Source of the DNA: a virus
Virus genome (UHGV): UHGV-0155908
Reading direction: 5' to 3' (one strand)
DNA: 11,632 nt
The notes under the pieces: generated by a model
Seen by the model: the letters and a program-made list of their open reading frames with translations, nothing else
What the model was told of the DNA's origin: nothing
Databases searched by the model: none
Shown here: piece after piece, positions 1 through 11,632 of the stretch
Numbering within the stretch: the stretch's first letter is position 1
How the letters are laid out: each line of letters begins with the position of its first letter
Position numbers and translations under genes: made by a program

Positions 1-47
1 CGGCCCAGATCCGCGAAATTTTAATCAGCGAGTCAGCTTGGGAAGAA

Positions 48-839
48 ATGACCTGCTTATTCGCACCTTCCTTAGCTTCCTTAGCTAATATGATACAGCC
101 TTTTGATGAATCAAAATTTATTGAGAGGTTGTACAATGATATTGATTTTATCATTACTGATCTTGAGAGAGCATCAAATAAGTATTATTGCGATGACGAG
201 GATAAAATAACTAATGTTATCGCTCTTGCTCTACGAATGAAAGGATATGATGCGACAGAACAAACAAACTCTAATGGCACTGTTGATTTAACTATTAGGG
301 ATAACACGAAGAAATTTACATGGCTGGCTGAGGCTAAAAGAGGTTATAGTTTAAACTCGGTTTTTGAGGGGCTTTTACAATTAGTTACTAGGTATTTGCG
401 AAGGGAAACGCATGCTGGATTATTAATTTATCATCAAAAAAAAGGAGCTATGGCATTCCTTAGAGATTGGCACACGTATCTTTCATCTGGTAGCTATAGG
501 AAGTATTCTAAGATCCAAGAAAGAATAGATGAGTGCGATAAGTGCTTTCGCTTGTCACCTGTTGCCTATTCAATGATTCCATCTAATAATTCTCATTACT
601 TTGATTTTACTGCGGTAAAACCGAATGATGGGCAAGTTAAAGTTCGTTGTTTTATTGCAGATTTAAACTTTGATCCAATTGATAAAAGTGCAAGAACAAA
701 TGCCAGTTTAGCAAAAGGACAATGTAAGATATCATTAACGGACATATGTACTCATTGGGAGTGTGAGGGCGAAATTCCAGGTGATGTTAATACGGTCTTT
801 CAAATGCTGAAAAACTTACACCCGGAATATTTCGTCTAA
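48..839 (+). CDS. hypothetical protein in AT-rich cargo locus; weak PD-(D/E)xK nuclease-like motif
   Basis: 263-codon ORF from the track. GC about 30% in sampled 60-nt stretches, well below the prophage core. The frame is open back to nt 3, so the true start may lie upstream of the window or at the internal Met near nt 90. Motif TVDLTIRD...(15 aa)...WLAEAKRG fits a D-x(n)-E-x-K nuclease core, by eye only. Confidence 0.55.
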   Translation: MTCLFAPSLASLANMIQPFDESKFIERLYNDIDFIITDLERASNKYYCDDEDKITNVIALALRMKGYDATEQTNSNGTVDLTIRDNTKKFTWLAEAKRGYSLNSVFEGLLQLVTRYLRRETHAGLLIYHQKKGAMAFLRDWHTYLSSGSYRKYSKIQERIDECDKCFRLSPVAYSMIPSNNSHYFDFTAVKPNDGQVKVRCFIADLNFDPIDKSARTNASLAKGQCKISLTDICTHWECEGEIPGDVNTVFQMLKNLHPEYFV

Positions 840-963
840 ATTTTTGACTTATTTAAAGTGGGACTCAATTTTATTTTTCGGTCATAAACCAATACTTGCG
901 ACTCTGTTTTATGACCACTAAATAATTTTTTTCTTTTCCTGAACCCTCGTAATCTGATATGCC

Positions 964-1100
964 TTATGCTTTGAGGTCATGGAAGGTACAATCAAGTAGC
1001 CTACCAAGTTTATTGGCAGCAGTTGTTCTGGCTTTTCGCCATGTCTCGTTAAACCCTTTGTAAGAGTACTGCTCTCCATACGCCGTTTTGGTAAGCGAAT
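964..1100 (-). pseudogene. 3' remnant of a second lambda-family integrase (about 45 codons, lacks catalytic-Tyr tail)
   Basis: Reverse-strand translation gives ...LTKTAYGEQYSYKGFNETWRKARTTAANKLGRLLDCTFHDLKA then TAA, colinear with the intact integrase segment IKTMYGERYSYKGFNEAWRKARAAAANHLGRPLDCTFHDLKA. The DNA is clearly similar (compare 1036-1090 with 2257-2311) but not identical. Homology is lost upstream of about nt 1100 and the fragment ends just before the region that encodes the catalytic tyrosine in the intact gene. Track ORF 918..1130 is an out-of-frame artefact over this remnant. Confidence 0.7.
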
Positions 1101-1384
1101 GGTGGAAGAGTTGAATGCGGAAGGAGGCACTTCTCAACTCGATGCCCGGGTGCTTGAGTTACTGGTTGAAACGTACAGTGGCATCTGGGATGGGACCGTT
1201 AAACCGAAGTGGGGGTAAATCCCTTCTCTCCGCCACTATTTAAGCATTTAGCACATCTTTAATCAGTGATACAAGTCTCGTTGAGGAAAAAGAGAAATTC
1301 ACTTAAAAAAATTCTGTTATCATTCCCTTCTTTATGCAAAAATCCCATCTATCCTTTTTTATAATAATTTTATAGAAAAACATA

Positions 1385-2050
1385 ATGAAGCACGAAAATG
1401 TTAATACAATTATTGCTCTGGCGGGACTGGGGTTAGCTGCCTTTAGTACATTTATGCAATTTAAACCTCAGCAGGATGTTTTGGATATAGTTGTAACAGC
1501 TGATAATTCTGATAACAGAGGTTTTTTCCTGAAAGGAAAACCACTTCCTGATGATATTTTTGGGGAGTCAAAAATCCTCGCTGGACCGTATAATTTGTTT
1601 TTCGAAATATCTAATAATATAAACAGACCTGTTACAATTAAGGGAGTTGACATAAAATTACTTGATGATACAGGGTCGTCAATAGATTATGGCGATATAG
1701 TTTACTCTGAAAGTGATAAAAAAACATTAACCAATCCTGTGCAATATGAACCTCATACAGTAAAAAGGTTTAACGTAGCTATCAATATACCAATCGTTTA
1801 TGGAAAAGAGTTCAATAAATGTTTTCATCCTACAGGCTTTATAGTTGAGCAGGGTAGATATTTTGGCGATATCCGTTTTTGCTATTATTCTGAGGGTGTT
1901 GATTTCTTTGGCAATAAAGTTAATTCCCGTGTTTTGGAAGGCGGTGGTATTTATTTTACTAAGGATGAAAGTAAGTATCTAAACTATAAAGTTACAGTAG
2001 TTACTGGTGATAACACTATTATCAGTAAGGTGGTCACTATTCGCGACTGA
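1385..2050 (+). CDS. hypothetical membrane-anchored protein (N-terminal hydrophobic helix) in the int-proximal cargo position
   Basis: 221-codon ORF; N-terminus TIIALAGLGLAAFSTFMQF is a likely signal-anchor or TM helix with no lipobox Cys. AT-rich like 48..839. Converges on the integrase 3' end with only 11 nt between stops. A TATAAT hexamer lies upstream at 1360-1365; the SD is weak. Confidence 0.6.
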   Translation: MKHENVNTIIALAGLGLAAFSTFMQFKPQQDVLDIVVTADNSDNRGFFLKGKPLPDDIFGESKILAGPYNLFFEISNNINRPVTIKGVDIKLLDDTGSSIDYGDIVYSESDKKTLTNPVQYEPHTVKRFNVAINIPIVYGKEFNKCFHPTGFIVEQGRYFGDIRFCYYSEGVDFFGNKVNSRVLEGGGIYFTKDESKYLNYKVTVVTGDNTIISKVVTIRD

Positions 2051-2061
2051 CCACCTGTGGG

Positions 2062-3045
2062 TTATTTATCAAGAGTAGGGGTTATCTTGATCTTTCTATC
2101 ATAGACAAGAACTTGAGATTCAGTTTTGTGACCGCTGAACTTCTGTTTATCTCTGGAAGAGCCTTCGTAGTCAGAAATGCTTTTAGCCTTCAGATCATGA
2201 AATGTGCAATCCAGAGGTCTTCCTAGATGGTTAGCTGCTGCTGCTCTTGCTTTTCGCCATGCCTCGTTAAACCCTTTGTAAGAGTAACGTTCTCCATACA
2301 TCGTTTTTATGACCGCACCATCTTCTCCCCATGCTCGACACCGATTCACTGCTGTTCGTAAACGTTCAGTCCATGCTTTTATTTGCTTAACACCCGTTTT
2401 GCCTTGCTGGATGAAAATCCCTTCATCCATTATCTGGGACCAATCCATCTTCAGAACATCGGATACCCTCGCTGCACACAGGTAAGCTATTTCCATTGCG
2501 GCTTTAACCGGTTCACTGGCGTGTTCATAAATCGCCAGGTATTCTTCATCCGTGATGTAGCGATCACGCTTTGGTTTTGGAAACTTGTCCACTCCTACAC
2601 ATGGATTACCAGGAACGAAGCCACGTTGATACCCCCAGCGATAAACTCGAGACATCGAGCTATGTTCATGGTTGGCCTGGACACGGCTTTTCTTTCCTCT
2701 GGCATCCATGTAGCGTCTGACATGTTCTGGCTTAATGGCTTTAGCCTCAGCATCACCGAAAACAGCCAGCAGATATTTTTCATGAGCCAGATAGTCTTTC
2801 TGTGTTCGCGGGGCTAAAGCTGCATAATCCGTGCTGTTTAGGAACTTCTTCCATAATTGGGAAAAGGTAAGTATATTTTTCCTGCCTTCAACCACCTTCT
2901 CAAAAGCGATCCATACCTCTGATTTTGAGGCGCCGGCAGGTGCCAGTTTTTCTGTTGTTCCACCTGGTTTCCAGTAATAACCAGAAGGGCGAAAGAAAAC
3001 GCCCTTTGGCATCCACTCGTTACCGGGTGCTCGTTTGCGACCCAT
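2062..3045 (-). CDS. int: tyrosine site-specific integrase, lambda Int family
   Basis: 327 aa. N-terminus MGRKRAPGNEW...PSGYYW parallels lambda Int MGRRRSHERRDLPPNLYIRNNGYYCYRD (arm-binding domain). Central QQGKTGVKQIKAW parallels lambda EQSKTGVKIAIP. C-terminus FHDLKAKSISDYEGS...GHKTESQVLVYDRK parallels lambda FHELRSLSARLYEKQ...GHKSDTMASQYRDDR, including the catalytic Tyr. Comparison is from recalled lambda sequence, not an alignment tool. Confidence 0.93.
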   Translation of the reverse strand: MGRKRAPGNEWMPKGVFFRPSGYYWKPGGTTEKLAPAGASKSEVWIAFEKVVEGRKNILTFSQLWKKFLNSTDYAALAPRTQKDYLAHEKYLLAVFGDAEAKAIKPEHVRRYMDARGKKSRVQANHEHSSMSRVYRWGYQRGFVPGNPCVGVDKFPKPKRDRYITDEEYLAIYEHASEPVKAAMEIAYLCAARVSDVLKMDWSQIMDEGIFIQQGKTGVKQIKAWTERLRTAVNRCRAWGEDGAVIKTMYGERYSYKGFNEAWRKARAAAANHLGRPLDCTFHDLKAKSISDYEGSSRDKQKFSGHKTESQVLVYDRKIKITPTLDK

Positions 3046-3049
3046 AATT

Positions 3050-3271
3050 TCACTCTATTGCGTTGAAGTTCATGCCCGGAGTGGGCAGAGACCCTGCTGG
3101 TGGATTTAACCTGAATGGATGATTTATATGATACCAAGTGGTTTTAACTGCACCATCGCGGCGTTCAATAAAATAAATACCATTCTGAGTTAAAACTTCT
3201 TTTTGCAGAGACTTCTGTGGTGATCCAGTAGCTTCTGCAAGTTCGTCATCAGTTAGGAAACGATCGCTCAT
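3050..3271 (-). CDS. xis: putative excisionase / directionality factor (by position; sequence unlike lambda Xis)
   Basis: 73-aa ORF immediately upstream of int on the same strand (stop 3052-3050, int ATG 3045-3043). GGAGA lies 7 nt upstream of its ATG. Small and basic/aromatic. Function is inferred from the conserved xis-int arrangement only. Confidence 0.6.
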   Translation of the reverse strand: MSDRFLTDDELAEATGSPQKSLQKEVLTQNGIYFIERRDGAVKTTWYHINHPFRLNPPAGSLPTPGMNFNAIE

Positions 3272-3329
3272 GAGACGTTCTCCACTTAGCCCAGCTGCAC
3301 CCAGGCTGTAACATCAAACAACGATCCGA

Positions 3330-10398: not shown

Positions 10399-11632
10399 GA
10401 TTATCGTTGATAACTTTGCTGGTGGCGGTGGTGCATCAACGGGTATTGAACTGGCGATCGGACGCAGCGTGGATATTGCGATCAACCACGACGAAAACGC
10501 CATTGCGATGCACAAGACGAACCACCCTGACACACTGCATTACTGTGAATCCGTATTTGACGTGGATCCGGTAGCCGCCACCGGCGGCAATCCTGTTGGC
10601 CTGGCATGGTTTAGCCCGGACTGCCGACACTTCTCAAAGGCCAAAGGCGCAAAGCCTGTGAAAAAAGAGATACGCGGTCTGGCCTGGATCGTTCTGCGTT
10701 GGGCACTGGCGAAGCGACCGCGCGTGATGATGCTGGAGAACGTGGAAGAGTTTAAAACGTGGGGACCGCTGCTGGCCGATGAAATGCGTCCAGACCCTGC
10801 CCGCACTGGCGAAACATTCAATGCTTTTGTCGGCATGCTTTCCACTGGCATTCCTGCCGATCACCCGGCACTGGCGGAGGTCTGCGAATTTCTTGCTATT
10901 GATCCTGGCAGCACGCAGGCCAAACAGCTGGTGGAAGGGCTTGGATATGATGTTGATTATCGCGAACTGCGCGCGTGTGATTACGGCGCGCCGACGATCC
11001 GCAAACGCTTCTTCATGGTTATGCGCTGCGATGGTTGCCCTATTCAGTGGCCTGTTGTAACCCATGGGGATCCCAAGTCACTGGAGGTGCAGAGCGGCAG
11101 GCTGATGCCATGGCGTACCGCTGCGGAATGTATCGACTGGAATGTTCCGGCTCTGTCCATCTTCGACCGCAAAAAACCGCTGGCAGAGAACACTCTGAAG
11201 CGGATCGCACGCGGCATACAGCGCTTTGTTATCGAAAGTGCGTCGCCGTTTATCGTGAAGTGCAACCACACGAGCTCAAAAAATGCGTATGACGCTTTTC
11301 GCGGACAGTCACTGAATGAGCCATTACAGACCATTACTAAAAAACTCGGCTACGCGTTAGCCGTTCCACACCTTACAAAATTCCGCACTGGCGCAACCGG
11401 GCAGCCCGTTACCGAACCTGTTCCGACGGTAACCGCTGGCACGTCAAAACGCCCGGGCGGGAACGGGCATGCTCTCGGGATTGTTGAGGCTGCATTGACA
11501 CCATTCCTGGCGGGTAATGGTGGTAGTGAATACCAGGCTAAACCGCGCCCGCTGAATAAACCTGCTCATACCATTCTGAAGCAATCCCGAGCCTGTCTTG
11601 TTGCGCCAGTGATAGCCCGCCAGTTTGGGGCC
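10391..11632 (+). CDS. DNA cytosine-5 methyltransferase-like protein, 3'-truncated by window end
   Basis: Hand-translated 414 codons, open to the window edge. Motif I-like IVDNFAGGGGAS. Cys-containing FSPDCRHFSKAKG at the spacing expected for the Pro-Cys catalytic motif, though the canonical form is PC rather than PDC. ENV motif at MMLENVEEF. Start overlaps the upstream gene's stop by 8 nt. Confidence 0.75.
   Translation, partial: MREIIVDNFAGGGGASTGIELAIGRSVDIAINHDENAIAMHKTNHPDTLHYCESVFDVDPVAATGGNPVGLAWFSPDCRHFSKAKGAKPVKKEIRGLAWIVLRWALAKRPRVMMLENVEEFKTWGPLLADEMRPDPARTGETFNAFVGMLSTGIPADHPALAEVCEFLAIDPGSTQAKQLVEGLGYDVDYRELRACDYGAPTIRKRFFMVMRCDGCPIQWPVVTHGDPKSLEVQSGRLMPWRTAAECIDWNVPALSIFDRKKPLAENTLKRIARGIQRFVIESASPFIVKCNHTSSKNAYDAFRGQSLNEPLQTITKKLGYALAVPHLTKFRTGATGQPVTEPVPTVTAGTSKRPGGNGHALGIVEAALTPFLAGNGGSEYQAKPRPLNKPAHTILKQSRACLVAPVIARQFGA

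What the first reader, a model, noticed from the sequence alone, without database searches (positions are those of the whole stretch)
964..1100. Remnant 3' end of a second, diverged integrase: footprint of an earlier recombination event
About 137 bp encode the segment colinear with residues IKTMYGERY...FHDLKA of the intact integrase, with several amino-acid and nucleotide differences, so this is not a simple duplication. It terminates at a TAA exactly before the part that would encode the catalytic tyrosine. This suggests tandem or sequential integration at the same locus, or cargo exchange by recombination within int. The junctions near 964 and 1100 may mark att-related or recombination breakpoints.
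Basis: seen in the sequence. Interest (0 to 1): 0.45.

Follow-up and report, generated by a model that had tools for sequence, protein, structure and literature searches.

The report
Fossil integrase end carried inside prophage
The short integrase-like stretch is a real but dead leftover of a second, related phage that once sat next to this one at the serU tRNA gene; the surviving phage now carries that leftover and its neighbouring cargo genes from host to host, which is a known way for mobile elements to pick up genes and not a new kind of system.

Summary
Homology runs from about 1089 down to the natural stop at 836-838. It passes the TAA at 964-966 and includes the catalytic Tyr codon (884-886) after a 1-nt frameshift. 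So 964 is a point lesion, not a junction.

The real breakpoint is at 1089-1095. There the integrase 3' end is fused to a 27-codon piece of a P27-type small terminase gene (1095-1177). A decayed tRNA-Ser-like att site (about 1188-1235) and a decayed P' arm follow.

Related contigs give the order serU / P' arm / variable cargo / int' / terS' / att' / ORF221 / intact int / prophage. An E. coli prophage (L040) has the same cargo cassette beside a full-length 330-aa integrase, colinear with window 72-1068.

One version of the whole block is virtually identical (1 difference in 5.5 kb) in three host backgrounds whose flanks are only 77-91% identical. Identity begins inside serU.

The remnant is therefore a pseudogene scar of tandem integration followed by deletion, now carried inside one mobile phage genome. 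This is a new example of a known process, of moderate interest.

The parts
1..71 (.). End of an IS5-family insertion sequence (terminal inverted repeat CTTATTCGCACCTTCC at 56-71). The contig breaks here.
   Evidence: Window 1-83 matches at 95-99% in 1888 of 5426 E. coli genomes, up to 43 places per genome. The boundary was fixed by comparison with the uninterrupted locus L034. The match of the repeat to the IS5 end is from my own knowledge of the IS5 sequence.
72..839 (+). Cargo gene of module A: codons 15-265 of a 265-aa protein, the last gene of a 361/146/265-aa cassette. It is cut by the IS at target TTAG (72-75). GC is about 35%.
   Evidence: 100% identical over 251 aa to the L034 265-aa protein and to P0001, which its source names as an E. 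coli protein. No Pfam or PADLOC hit.
836..1089 (-). int': pseudogene remnant of the last ~84 codons of a 330-aa-type tyrosine integrase. Nonsense codon at 964-966, 1-nt frameshift about 921-929, catalytic Tyr codon 884-886, natural stop 836-838.
   Evidence: Colinear with the cargo plus full-length int of L040 at 81.5% nt.
1089..1095 (.). Deletion junction between int' and the terminase fragment. It is shared by all three cargo types.
   Evidence: Integrase homology ends at 1089. terS homology starts at 1095. The same junction appears in the alignment of L003-L012.
1095..1177 (+). terS': internal 27-codon fragment (RMVEELNAEGGTSQLDARVLELLVETY) of a P27-type small terminase (Terminase_4).
   Evidence: 84% nt identity to the terS of Escherichia phage phi467 and to the Terminase_4 gene of L035.
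1188..1235 (+). att': decayed copy of the 66-nt serU-like core. It has internal deletions of about 5 and 15 nt, a 1-nt deletion in the C-run, and no P arm to its left.
   Evidence: Local alignment to serU scores 49.5 against a shuffle mean of 21.1 +/- 4.2; 0 of 2000 shuffles reach it. ARAGORN finds no tRNA in the window. For comparison, serU and the L005 attR carry perfect 66-nt copies.
1236..1311 (+). Fossil P' arm of the intact prophage's original attachment site. Its presumed arm-type repeats have decayed (TGAGGAAA, AGAGAAAT).
   Evidence: 77.6% nt identity to the P' arm of the ST64B-like phage F1055 attP. It has 0 exact TGAGAAAA, against 3 at +47/+57/+70 in F1055, P7641 and the alpha serU-proximal arm.
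1385..2050 (+). ORF221: low-GC (about 33%) cargo gene between att' and the intact integrase.
   Evidence: No Pfam or PADLOC hit. Types differ by 3-5% here while the adjacent int is identical.
2062..3045 (-). Intact 327-aa tyrosine integrase of the ST64B-like prophage (serU-specific family).
   Evidence: PF00589. 75% nt identity to the ST64B, F1055 and Klebsiella phage integrases.
3050..3271 (-). Excisionase-like gene (DUF4224). The right edge of the integration module is near 3318.
   Evidence: PF13986. The homologous ST64B gene is annotated as excisionase. L034 shares window 72-3318 at 98% and then continues into a different phage backbone.

Best explanation
[quoted passage not shown] Module A has an L040-like 330-aa integrase and a three-gene cargo cassette between its attachment site and int. 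I infer that module A once lay in tandem with the present prophage (B) at the serU tRNA-Ser gene.

Two internal deletions removed nearly all of A. What remains is its P' arm, its cargo, the last ~84 codons of int, and a 27-codon piece of terS. The attachment site between the two elements (att', 1188-1311) then decayed.

The surviving phage now recombines through the outer, serU-proximal site. The whole block (P' arm - cargo - int' - terS' - att' - ORF221 - int) therefore excises, transfers and integrates as one genome. In effect, phage B captured A's cargo by accretion.

The remnant does nothing itself. At most it offers a short stretch of homology at the edge of a cargo region that differs between variants.

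Shown: the homology and its lesions; the junction; the decayed att'; colinearity with an intact counterpart; identity of the block across hosts.
Inferred: the tandem intermediate; the order of events; use of the outer site by Int.
For: 1. int' is homologous to int over about 250 nt and carries a nonsense codon and a frameshift.
2. The three variants carry different lesions, so no reading frame is conserved.
3. L040 (E. coli) has serU / 361 / 146 / 265 aa / full-length 330-aa int / xis. Window 72-1068 is colinear with it at 81.5%, and int' shares its C-terminal tail. L015 (Atlantibacter) has the same layout.
4. int' is fused to a terS fragment at the same point in all variants. L035 and L037, the same lineage as the window, show the intact int itself cut to 145 codons and followed by holin-terS-terL-portal. 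That is the same decay route caught in progress.
5. The structure is two successive [core - P' - cargo - int 3' end] modules.
6. att' has lost parts of the core. It has 0 of 3 exact TGAGAAAA repeats, which sit at +47/+57/+70 in the F1055, P7641 and alpha serU-proximal arms.
7. Six alpha-type loci lie in three host backgrounds. One is E. coli, whose flank is 99% identical to E. coli HS; the other two have flanks 77% identical to E. coli and 91% to each other. Across these six loci there is 1 difference in 5.5 kb (a single base in L010), from serU position 25 through int. Upstream flanks differ by about 35 per 100 nt.
8. The attR of L005 carries a perfect 66-nt copy of serU positions 25-90.
9. 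The gamma block (window 72-3318) is joined to two different phage backbones.
Against: - No full tandem A-B intermediate was found.
- No excised or circular form, and no virion sequence, containing the int'/terS' junction was found. The junction pattern and the att' pattern gave no hit in viral contigs, and the junction pattern none in metagenome contigs. No sequenced phage is a near match.
- The far attR of a full-length copy was not retrieved; only that of the truncated L005 copy.
- One of the three host backgrounds for the alpha type (L003, E. coli) is a metagenome scaffold.
- The divergence gradient between variants (int 0%, ORF221 3-5%, terS'/att' about 10%, int' 25-30%) shows further recombination that this simple history does not fully explain.
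- TGAGAAAA as the Int arm-binding site is inferred from position and conservation, not tested.
Confidence: 0.72

Rival explanations
1. In-situ chromosomal scar. The remnant is a relic left in this particular chromosome by an earlier prophage, and the intact prophage integrated beside it independently in each strain.
For: 3'-only integrase fragments next to tRNA-Ser genes are common. Eight of 19 loci in a scan of GTDB species genomes are C-terminal fragments, and five of them lie within about 125 nt of a tRNA-Ser gene. E. coli HS has an annotated int pseudogene 'missing N-terminus' beside serU. L005 has a further int fragment beyond its attR.
Against: The same cargo - int' - terS' - att' - ORF221 - int block shows 1 difference in 5.5 kb across hosts whose flanks are 77-91% identical, and identity starts inside serU. 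Independent relics could not be that alike or share one deletion junction.
Confidence: 0.08
2. Same composite, different origin. The duplicated att-int module arose from an Int-mediated or illegitimate recombination between two co-infecting or replicating phage genomes (a cointegrate), not from two prophages sitting in tandem in a chromosome. Deletions followed.
For: The end product, P_A-core-P'_B between two modules, is the same as for tandem lysogeny. The mosaic patterns show that these phages recombine often.
Against: Nothing distinguishes this from tandem lysogeny with the present data. A genome of double size cannot be packaged, so deletions would have had to occur before packaging. That is easier in a prophage.
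Confidence: 0.12
3. Functional element. The fragment is kept because it does something, for example encoding a C-terminal Int peptide, providing an antisense RNA against int, or serving as a dedicated homology pad for swapping cargo cassettes.
For: Its position is conserved at the edge of a cargo region with three variants. The int' alleles are mosaic: the window and the beta type are nearly identical over 925-1000 but differ by 19 of 50 nt at 997-1046. All copies and the intact int share a perfectly conserved 22-nt patch (CGTTAAACCCTTTGTAAGAGTA).
Against: Each variant carries different nonsense and frameshift lesions. Sequence divergence between variants is 25-30%, the highest in the region, which is the opposite of purifying selection. 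A passive role as a recombination substrate needs no selection on the fragment itself.
Confidence: 0.05
4. Simple internal duplication of the phage's own integrase 3' end, followed by divergence; or a chance resemblance.
For: The two copies are direct repeats 1.2 kb apart.
Against: E 6e-34 excludes chance. The copy is 27% diverged from the adjacent int but matches the tail of a different, 330-aa integrase type together with that integrase's neighbouring cargo gene. A terS fragment and a second att and P' arm lie between the copies.
Confidence: 0.02

Closest known systems
Accretion and cis-mobilisation of decayed integrated elements (CIME-ICE tandems of Streptococcus thermophilus ICESt1/ICESt3; review PMC5704250, which cites Pavlovic 2004 and Bellanger 2011)
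   Same: A decayed element that has lost its recombination genes lies in tandem, at the same tRNA or gene 3' end, with a functional relative. The composite can move using the outer att sites, so the functional element captures the decayed one's genes.
   Different: Here the functional partner is a temperate phage, not a conjugative element. The middle att site has itself decayed, so the capture looks fixed rather than optional. Movement of the composite is inferred from sequence identity across hosts, not shown by experiment.
Truncated integrase remnant beside a prophage in Streptococcus thermophilus TP-778 (PMC3952083)
   Same: A truncated, diverged integrase gene from an older phage remnant lies next to a prophage that has a complete integrase of the same family.
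   Different: In TP-778 the remnant is in host DNA on the far flank, and excision happened by homologous recombination between the two int copies. Here the remnant is on the int-proximal side, inside the mobile unit, and no int/int' recombinant was seen.
Ordinary prophage decay at tRNA attachment sites (grounded or cryptic prophages; PMC6379469). One example is the PGAP-annotated 'integrase, missing N-terminus' beside serU in E. coli HS.
   Same: The att-proximal 3' end of int survives while the interior is deleted. Pseudogene lesions accumulate.
   Different: Those relics stay in the chromosome. This one travels within an active-looking phage genome.
Cargo or defence hotspot between att and integrase in P2-like phages and PICIs, with small intergenic core-gene pseudogenes read as recombination remnants (PMC13586616)
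   Same: Variable low-GC cargo lies between the attachment site and int and is carried with the element. Short pseudogene scraps of core genes lie in the hotspot.
   Different: This is a different phage family (ST64B-like, serU). The cargo here has no recognised defence annotation. The scar, which still shows int', terS' and a dead att site in order, records how the cargo got there.

Membership tests
Tyrosine recombinase / phage integrase (PF00589), ST64B-like serU-specific group | Sequence homology to the catalytic C-terminal domain, including the box II H-x-x-R/K motif, the G-H motif and the nucleophile Tyr | tested here: met
   int' reads FHDLKA ... SGHKTESQVLVYDRK. It is 80% identical over 81 aa to the intact int once the lesions are bridged.
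Tyrosine recombinase / phage integrase (PF00589), ST64B-like serU-specific group | A complete, uninterrupted gene able to encode an active enzyme (arm-binding, core-binding and catalytic domains) | tested here: not met
   Only the last ~84 of 330 codons remain. The window copy has a TAA at 964-966 and a frameshift about 921-929, and the alpha and beta copies have other lesions. It is a pseudogene fragment, not a member in the functional sense.
Tandem accretion with capture (CIME-like decayed element plus functional element) | Two modules of the same att specificity in direct order at one target gene | tested here: met
   The order is serU core - P' - cargo - int', then att' core - P' - ORF221 - int. 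Both P' arms are homologous to ST64B-type attP arms.
Tandem accretion with capture (CIME-like decayed element plus functional element) | The decayed partner keeps both of its att sites (the definition of a CIME) | tested here: not met
   The inner site att' has deletions in the core, no P arm, and 0 of 3 exact arm-type repeats. Strictly, the remnant is not a CIME; it is fused into the phage.
Tandem accretion with capture (CIME-like decayed element plus functional element) | The composite moves as one unit using the outer att sites | tested here: met
   Indirect only. There is 1 difference in 5.5 kb across six loci in three host backgrounds, identity starts at serU position 25, and the attR of L005 holds a 66-nt perfect repeat. 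No excision product was observed.
Tandem accretion with capture (CIME-like decayed element plus functional element) | Excision and transfer demonstrated experimentally | not testable with these tools
   This needs induction followed by junction PCR or virion sequencing.
P27-type small terminase (Terminase_4, PF05119) | Homology to the family over a complete gene | tested here: not met
   Only 27 internal codons (1095-1177) match, at 84% nt identity to the terS of phi467 and L035. It is a fragment.

The most novel reading that the evidence does not exclude
The dead integrase end may be more than a scar. In this reading it is the right-hand homology arm of a natural cassette-exchange site. Any incoming ST64B-like phage that integrates at serU, or recombines through the shared 66-nt tRNA core, can cross over with int'. 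That would replace the P' arm, the cargo and the distal part of int' in one step. It would explain the three cargo types, the mosaic int' alleles, and divergence that rises steadily towards the cargo. Temperate phages would then gain and shuffle att-proximal cargo, probably anti-phage cassettes, by accretion followed by int/int' recombination, a route so far documented mainly for conjugative elements.
Probability: 0.25. Interest if true: 0.55.

Novelty: new member of a known kind. Interest (0 to 1): 0.35.

Why it matters
On its own the remnant is an ordinary pseudogene scrap. What makes it useful is that it still sits in order with a terminase scrap and a dead attachment site, inside a phage that has spread virtually unchanged between E. 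coli and two other enterobacterial backgrounds.

That order records how a temperate phage acquired genes between its attachment site and its integrase, a position described as atypical for mobilised cargo (PMC13586616). The route was absorption of a decayed neighbour rather than imprecise excision of host DNA.

It also flags a rare three-gene cassette and two other cargo sets as likely accessory or defence genes worth testing.

For annotation there is a practical lesson. The true left end of this prophage is serU, not the att-like site next to the integrase, so prophage-boundary tools that stop at the first att-like repeat would cut off the cargo.

Tried and rejected
- tRNA and Rfam scans of the window found nothing. 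The att' site is too decayed to be called a tRNA.
- Megablast of window 1-3100 against 5426 complete E. coli genomes found only the IS end and one 79% integrase. The element is rare in finished E. coli genomes.
- No near-identical sequenced phage exists.
- Exact-pattern scans for the att'/P' sequence (viral contigs) and for the int'/terS' junction (viral and metagenome contigs) returned nothing. I have no free-phage or circular form.
- I considered that the element left of int' might be a PICI-like satellite because of the terS fragment. I dropped this after L040 and L015 showed the same cargo beside a full-length integrase in ordinary ST64B-like prophages, and L035 showed int-to-terS deletion in this very lineage.
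- I considered vertical inheritance of the scar with the host. I rejected it because of the near-complete identity across divergent hosts.
- Pfam and PADLOC searches of all cargo proteins gave nothing, except HATPase_c (below Pfam's cut-off) and DUF4325 in the alpha cassette.
- I tried to decide whether the three int' alleles come from separate donors or from one old pseudogene. The identity matrix is star-like (64-81% aa) and does not settle it.
- I did not walk the contigs to the far attR of a full-length copy.
- I did not identify the species of the two non-E. coli backgrounds.

Full report
**Observation**

The window is a whole 11,632-nt metagenome contig (ENA ERZ773500 NODE_1199). On the minus strand an intact 327-aa tyrosine integrase occupies 2062-3045.

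The minus-strand translation of 964-1137 aligns with integrase residues 244-287 at 34/44 identities, E 2e-16. At nucleotide level 870-1089 aligns with 2087-2307 at 73% over 221 nt, E 6e-34.

Homology continues past the TAA at 964-966. After a 1-nt frameshift in an A-run (about 921-929) the sequence still reads KLFSGHKTESQVLVYDRKIKLSPTLNKSKI*, with the catalytic tyrosine codon at 884-886 and the natural stop at 836-838.

The TAA is therefore a point lesion inside a pseudogene fragment of about 250 nt, not its end and not a junction. Two related variants read AAA (Lys) at that codon.

**Anatomy around it**

- **Junction.** Integrase homology stops at 1089. From 1095 to 1177, on the plus strand, the sequence is a 27-codon internal piece (RMVEELNAEGGTSQLDARVLELLVETY) of a P27-type small terminase. 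It is 84% identical in nucleotides to the terS of Escherichia phage phi467 and to the Terminase_4 gene of a sister contig.
- **Decayed att site.** About ten bases later lies a decayed copy of the 3' two-thirds of tRNA-Ser(CGA), serU, at about 1188-1235. It has several internal deletions, but its alignment score is not reached by any of 2000 shuffles. ARAGORN and Rfam call nothing there.
- **P' arm.** Positions 1236-1311 are homologous to the P' arm of the attP of ST64B-like Salmonella phage F1055.
- **Cargo and integrase.** A low-GC gene, ORF221 (1385-2050), follows, and then the intact integrase.
- **Left of the remnant.** A low-GC gene (72-839) converges on the remnant. An IS5-family element, whose end fills 1-71, has cut it at a TTAG target.

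**Context from related contigs**

Contigs encoding the identical integrase give this chromosomal order: asnT, mtfA, serU, a P' arm, a variable cargo set, int', terS', att', ORF221, int, xis, then the prophage. There are thus two successive modules of the form [tRNA-like core - P' arm - cargo - integrase 3' end].

The cargo beside serU comes in three types:

| Type | Cargo proteins (aa) | Notes |
|---|---|---|
| alpha | 370 + 117 + 152 | 370-aa protein gives a weak HATPase_c match, below Pfam's cut-off; 117-aa protein has DUF4325 |
| beta | 350 + 152 + 265 | proteins 41-46% identical to gamma |
| gamma | 361 + 146 + 265 | the window's type |

All three types share the same int'/terS' junction and the same att' architecture.

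**What the remnant came from**

A search with the truncated cargo protein found only 14 relatives in 5.8 billion proteins. Two of them sit in the arrangement the remnant must once have had.

- In E. coli locus L040 the order is mtfA, serU, 361, 146, 265 aa, a full-length 330-aa integrase, then xis and the early genes.
- Atlantibacter locus L015 has the same layout.

Window 72-1068 is colinear with L040 at 81.5% nucleotide identity, running from the cargo gene straight into the integrase 3' end. int' shares the L040 integrase's longer C-terminal tail, KLSPTLNK(S/P)KI, whereas the intact neighbour ends KITPTLDK.

So the fragment is the end of a second, diverged integrase in its native position beside its own cargo. 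It is not a duplicate of the intact gene.

The deletion route is also visible in this same lineage. Contigs L035 and L037 match the window at 99.5% up to position 2465. There the intact integrase is cut to 145 codons and is followed by HicAB, holin, terS, terL and portal.

**The scar travels with the phage**

The six alpha-type loci lie in three host backgrounds.

- One is E. coli. The L003 flank is 99.3% identical to that of L034, and the L034 flank is 99% identical to E. coli HS.
- The other two backgrounds have mtfA-serU flanks 77% identical to E. coli's and 91% identical to each other.

Across all six loci there is 1 difference in 5.5 kb (a single base in L010), from serU position 25 through the P' arm, cargo, int', terS', att', ORF221 and int. 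Immediately upstream, the hosts differ at about 35 of every 100 positions. The last host-specific differences are at tRNA positions 12 and 24.

In L005 the other end of the element carries a perfect 66-nt copy of serU positions 25-90, preceded by a P arm. The unit that integrates therefore begins at the serU-proximal site, and the remnant is internal to it.

In agreement, the gamma block (window 72-3318, through xis) is joined to a quite different phage backbone in L034.

**Which site is alive**

Attachment sites taken to be functional carry three exact TGAGAAAA repeats at +47, +57 and +70 after the tRNA CCA end. This holds for F1055, Klebsiella phage P7641 and the alpha serU-proximal arm.

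| Site | Exact TGAGAAAA | Near copies (one mismatch) |
|---|---|---|
| F1055, P7641, alpha serU-proximal arm | 3 | not relevant |
| beta and gamma serU-proximal arms | 1 | 2 |
| internal att' arm | 0 | 1 (TGAGGAAA); AGAGAAAT has two mismatches |
| relic beyond the L005 attR | 0 | 0 |

That these repeats are the arm-type Int binding sites is my inference from their conservation and fixed spacing. Together with the damaged core, this marks att' as a dead site.

**Most likely history and mechanism**

1. A phage like L040 (module A) and the present phage (B) came to lie in tandem at serU. This step is inferred.
2. Deletions from int codon ~247 into terS, and from terS to the edge of the middle core, removed A's body. 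The junctions are shown.
3. The middle site decayed. This is shown.
4. B's Int/Xis now act on the outer sites, so A's P' arm and cargo became part of B's genome. The co-transfer is shown; the enzymology is inferred.

The remnant itself does nothing.

This is the accretion and gene-capture route described for conjugative elements and their decayed relatives (PMC5704250). It also resembles the truncated-integrase relic next to S. thermophilus prophage TP-778 (PMC3952083).

3'-only integrase relics next to tRNA-Ser are common. Eight of 19 loci in the GTDB scan are C-terminal fragments. E. coli HS has one annotated beside serU, and L005 has another beyond its attR.

**Unresolved**

Between cargo types, divergence rises steadily towards the cargo:

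| Region | Divergence between types |
|---|---|
| int through about 11.3 kb | essentially 0 |
| ORF221 | 3-5% |
| terS' and att' | about 10% |
| int' | 25-30% |

int' also shows mosaic patches, for example near-identity between the window and the beta type over 925-1000.

This requires further recombination. It is compatible with cassette exchange using the tRNA core and int' as flanks. However, each int' allele has its own lesions and the identity matrix is star-like. I therefore cannot tell separate donors from one old pseudogene that has since been partly overwritten.

No tandem intermediate and no excised form were found.

**Verdict**

- It is a new example of a known process and of moderate interest. 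Its main value is as a clear natural record of how a temperate phage acquired cargo between its attachment site and its integrase (compare PMC13586616).

Noticed in passing
window 1-75: The contig starts inside the end of an IS5-family element (inverted repeat 56-71) inserted at a TTAG target (72-75) in codon ~15 of the 265-aa cargo gene. The ATG at 48 lies inside the IS, so ORF 48-839 is a fusion artefact. Sister contigs L035 and L037 break at the same IS.
   Followed up: yes
window 72-839; L034 7159-9456; L040 4501-6798; L015 11021-13320; L042 4507-6798: A rare three-gene cassette (about 360/146/265 aa). The 265-aa protein has only 14 homologues in 5.8 billion proteins, and none of the three has a Pfam or PADLOC hit. 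The cassette sits between att and int of ST64B-like prophages in E. coli and Atlantibacter, and next to P4-like primase and Ogr/Delta genes in Rouxiella badensis. It looks like an uncharacterised accessory, possibly anti-phage, system.
   Followed up: partly
L003 12218-14140 (alpha cargo): An alternative cargo at the same position: a 370-aa protein with a weak HATPase_c match (below Pfam's cut-off), a 117-aa DUF4325 (STAS-like) protein and a 152-aa protein. No PADLOC match.
   Followed up: partly
window 1385-2050: ORF221 is low-GC (about 33%), has a hydrophobic N-terminus and has no family match. It differs by 3-5% between variants although the integrase 11 nt away is identical in all of them. 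This puts a sharp recombination boundary near the integrase stop codon.
   Followed up: partly
L035 and L037, equivalent to window 2040-2477 onward: In contigs of the same lineage as the window (99.5% identical over 23-2465), the intact integrase is itself cut to 145 codons and joined to HicAB, holin, terS, terL and a portal gene. This shows prophage decay repeating the pattern that produced the remnant.
   Followed up: yes
L005, about 120-330 nt beyond its attR (reverse-complement index 17423); L039 4611-5189: There are further integrase 3' relics at the serU locus outside the mobile unit. One is a ~35-codon scrap beyond the attR of L005. Another is an annotated 'integrase, missing N-terminus' followed by terminase fragments beside serU in E. 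coli HS. serU appears to collect such relics.
   Followed up: partly
P' arms: L003 and L004 just after serU; L001 2520-2600; L002 2377-2460; window 1282-1300: Three TGAGAAAA repeats sit at fixed positions (+47, +57, +70 after the tRNA CCA end) in presumed working attachment sites of this integrase family. They have decayed in the internal att'. They are probably the arm-type Int binding sites.
   Followed up: partly
window 3318 and 11345-11632: These are mosaic boundaries of the prophage. L034 shares 72-3318 at 98% and then switches to a different early region. The window differs from both other types again after about 11,345.
   Followed up: no
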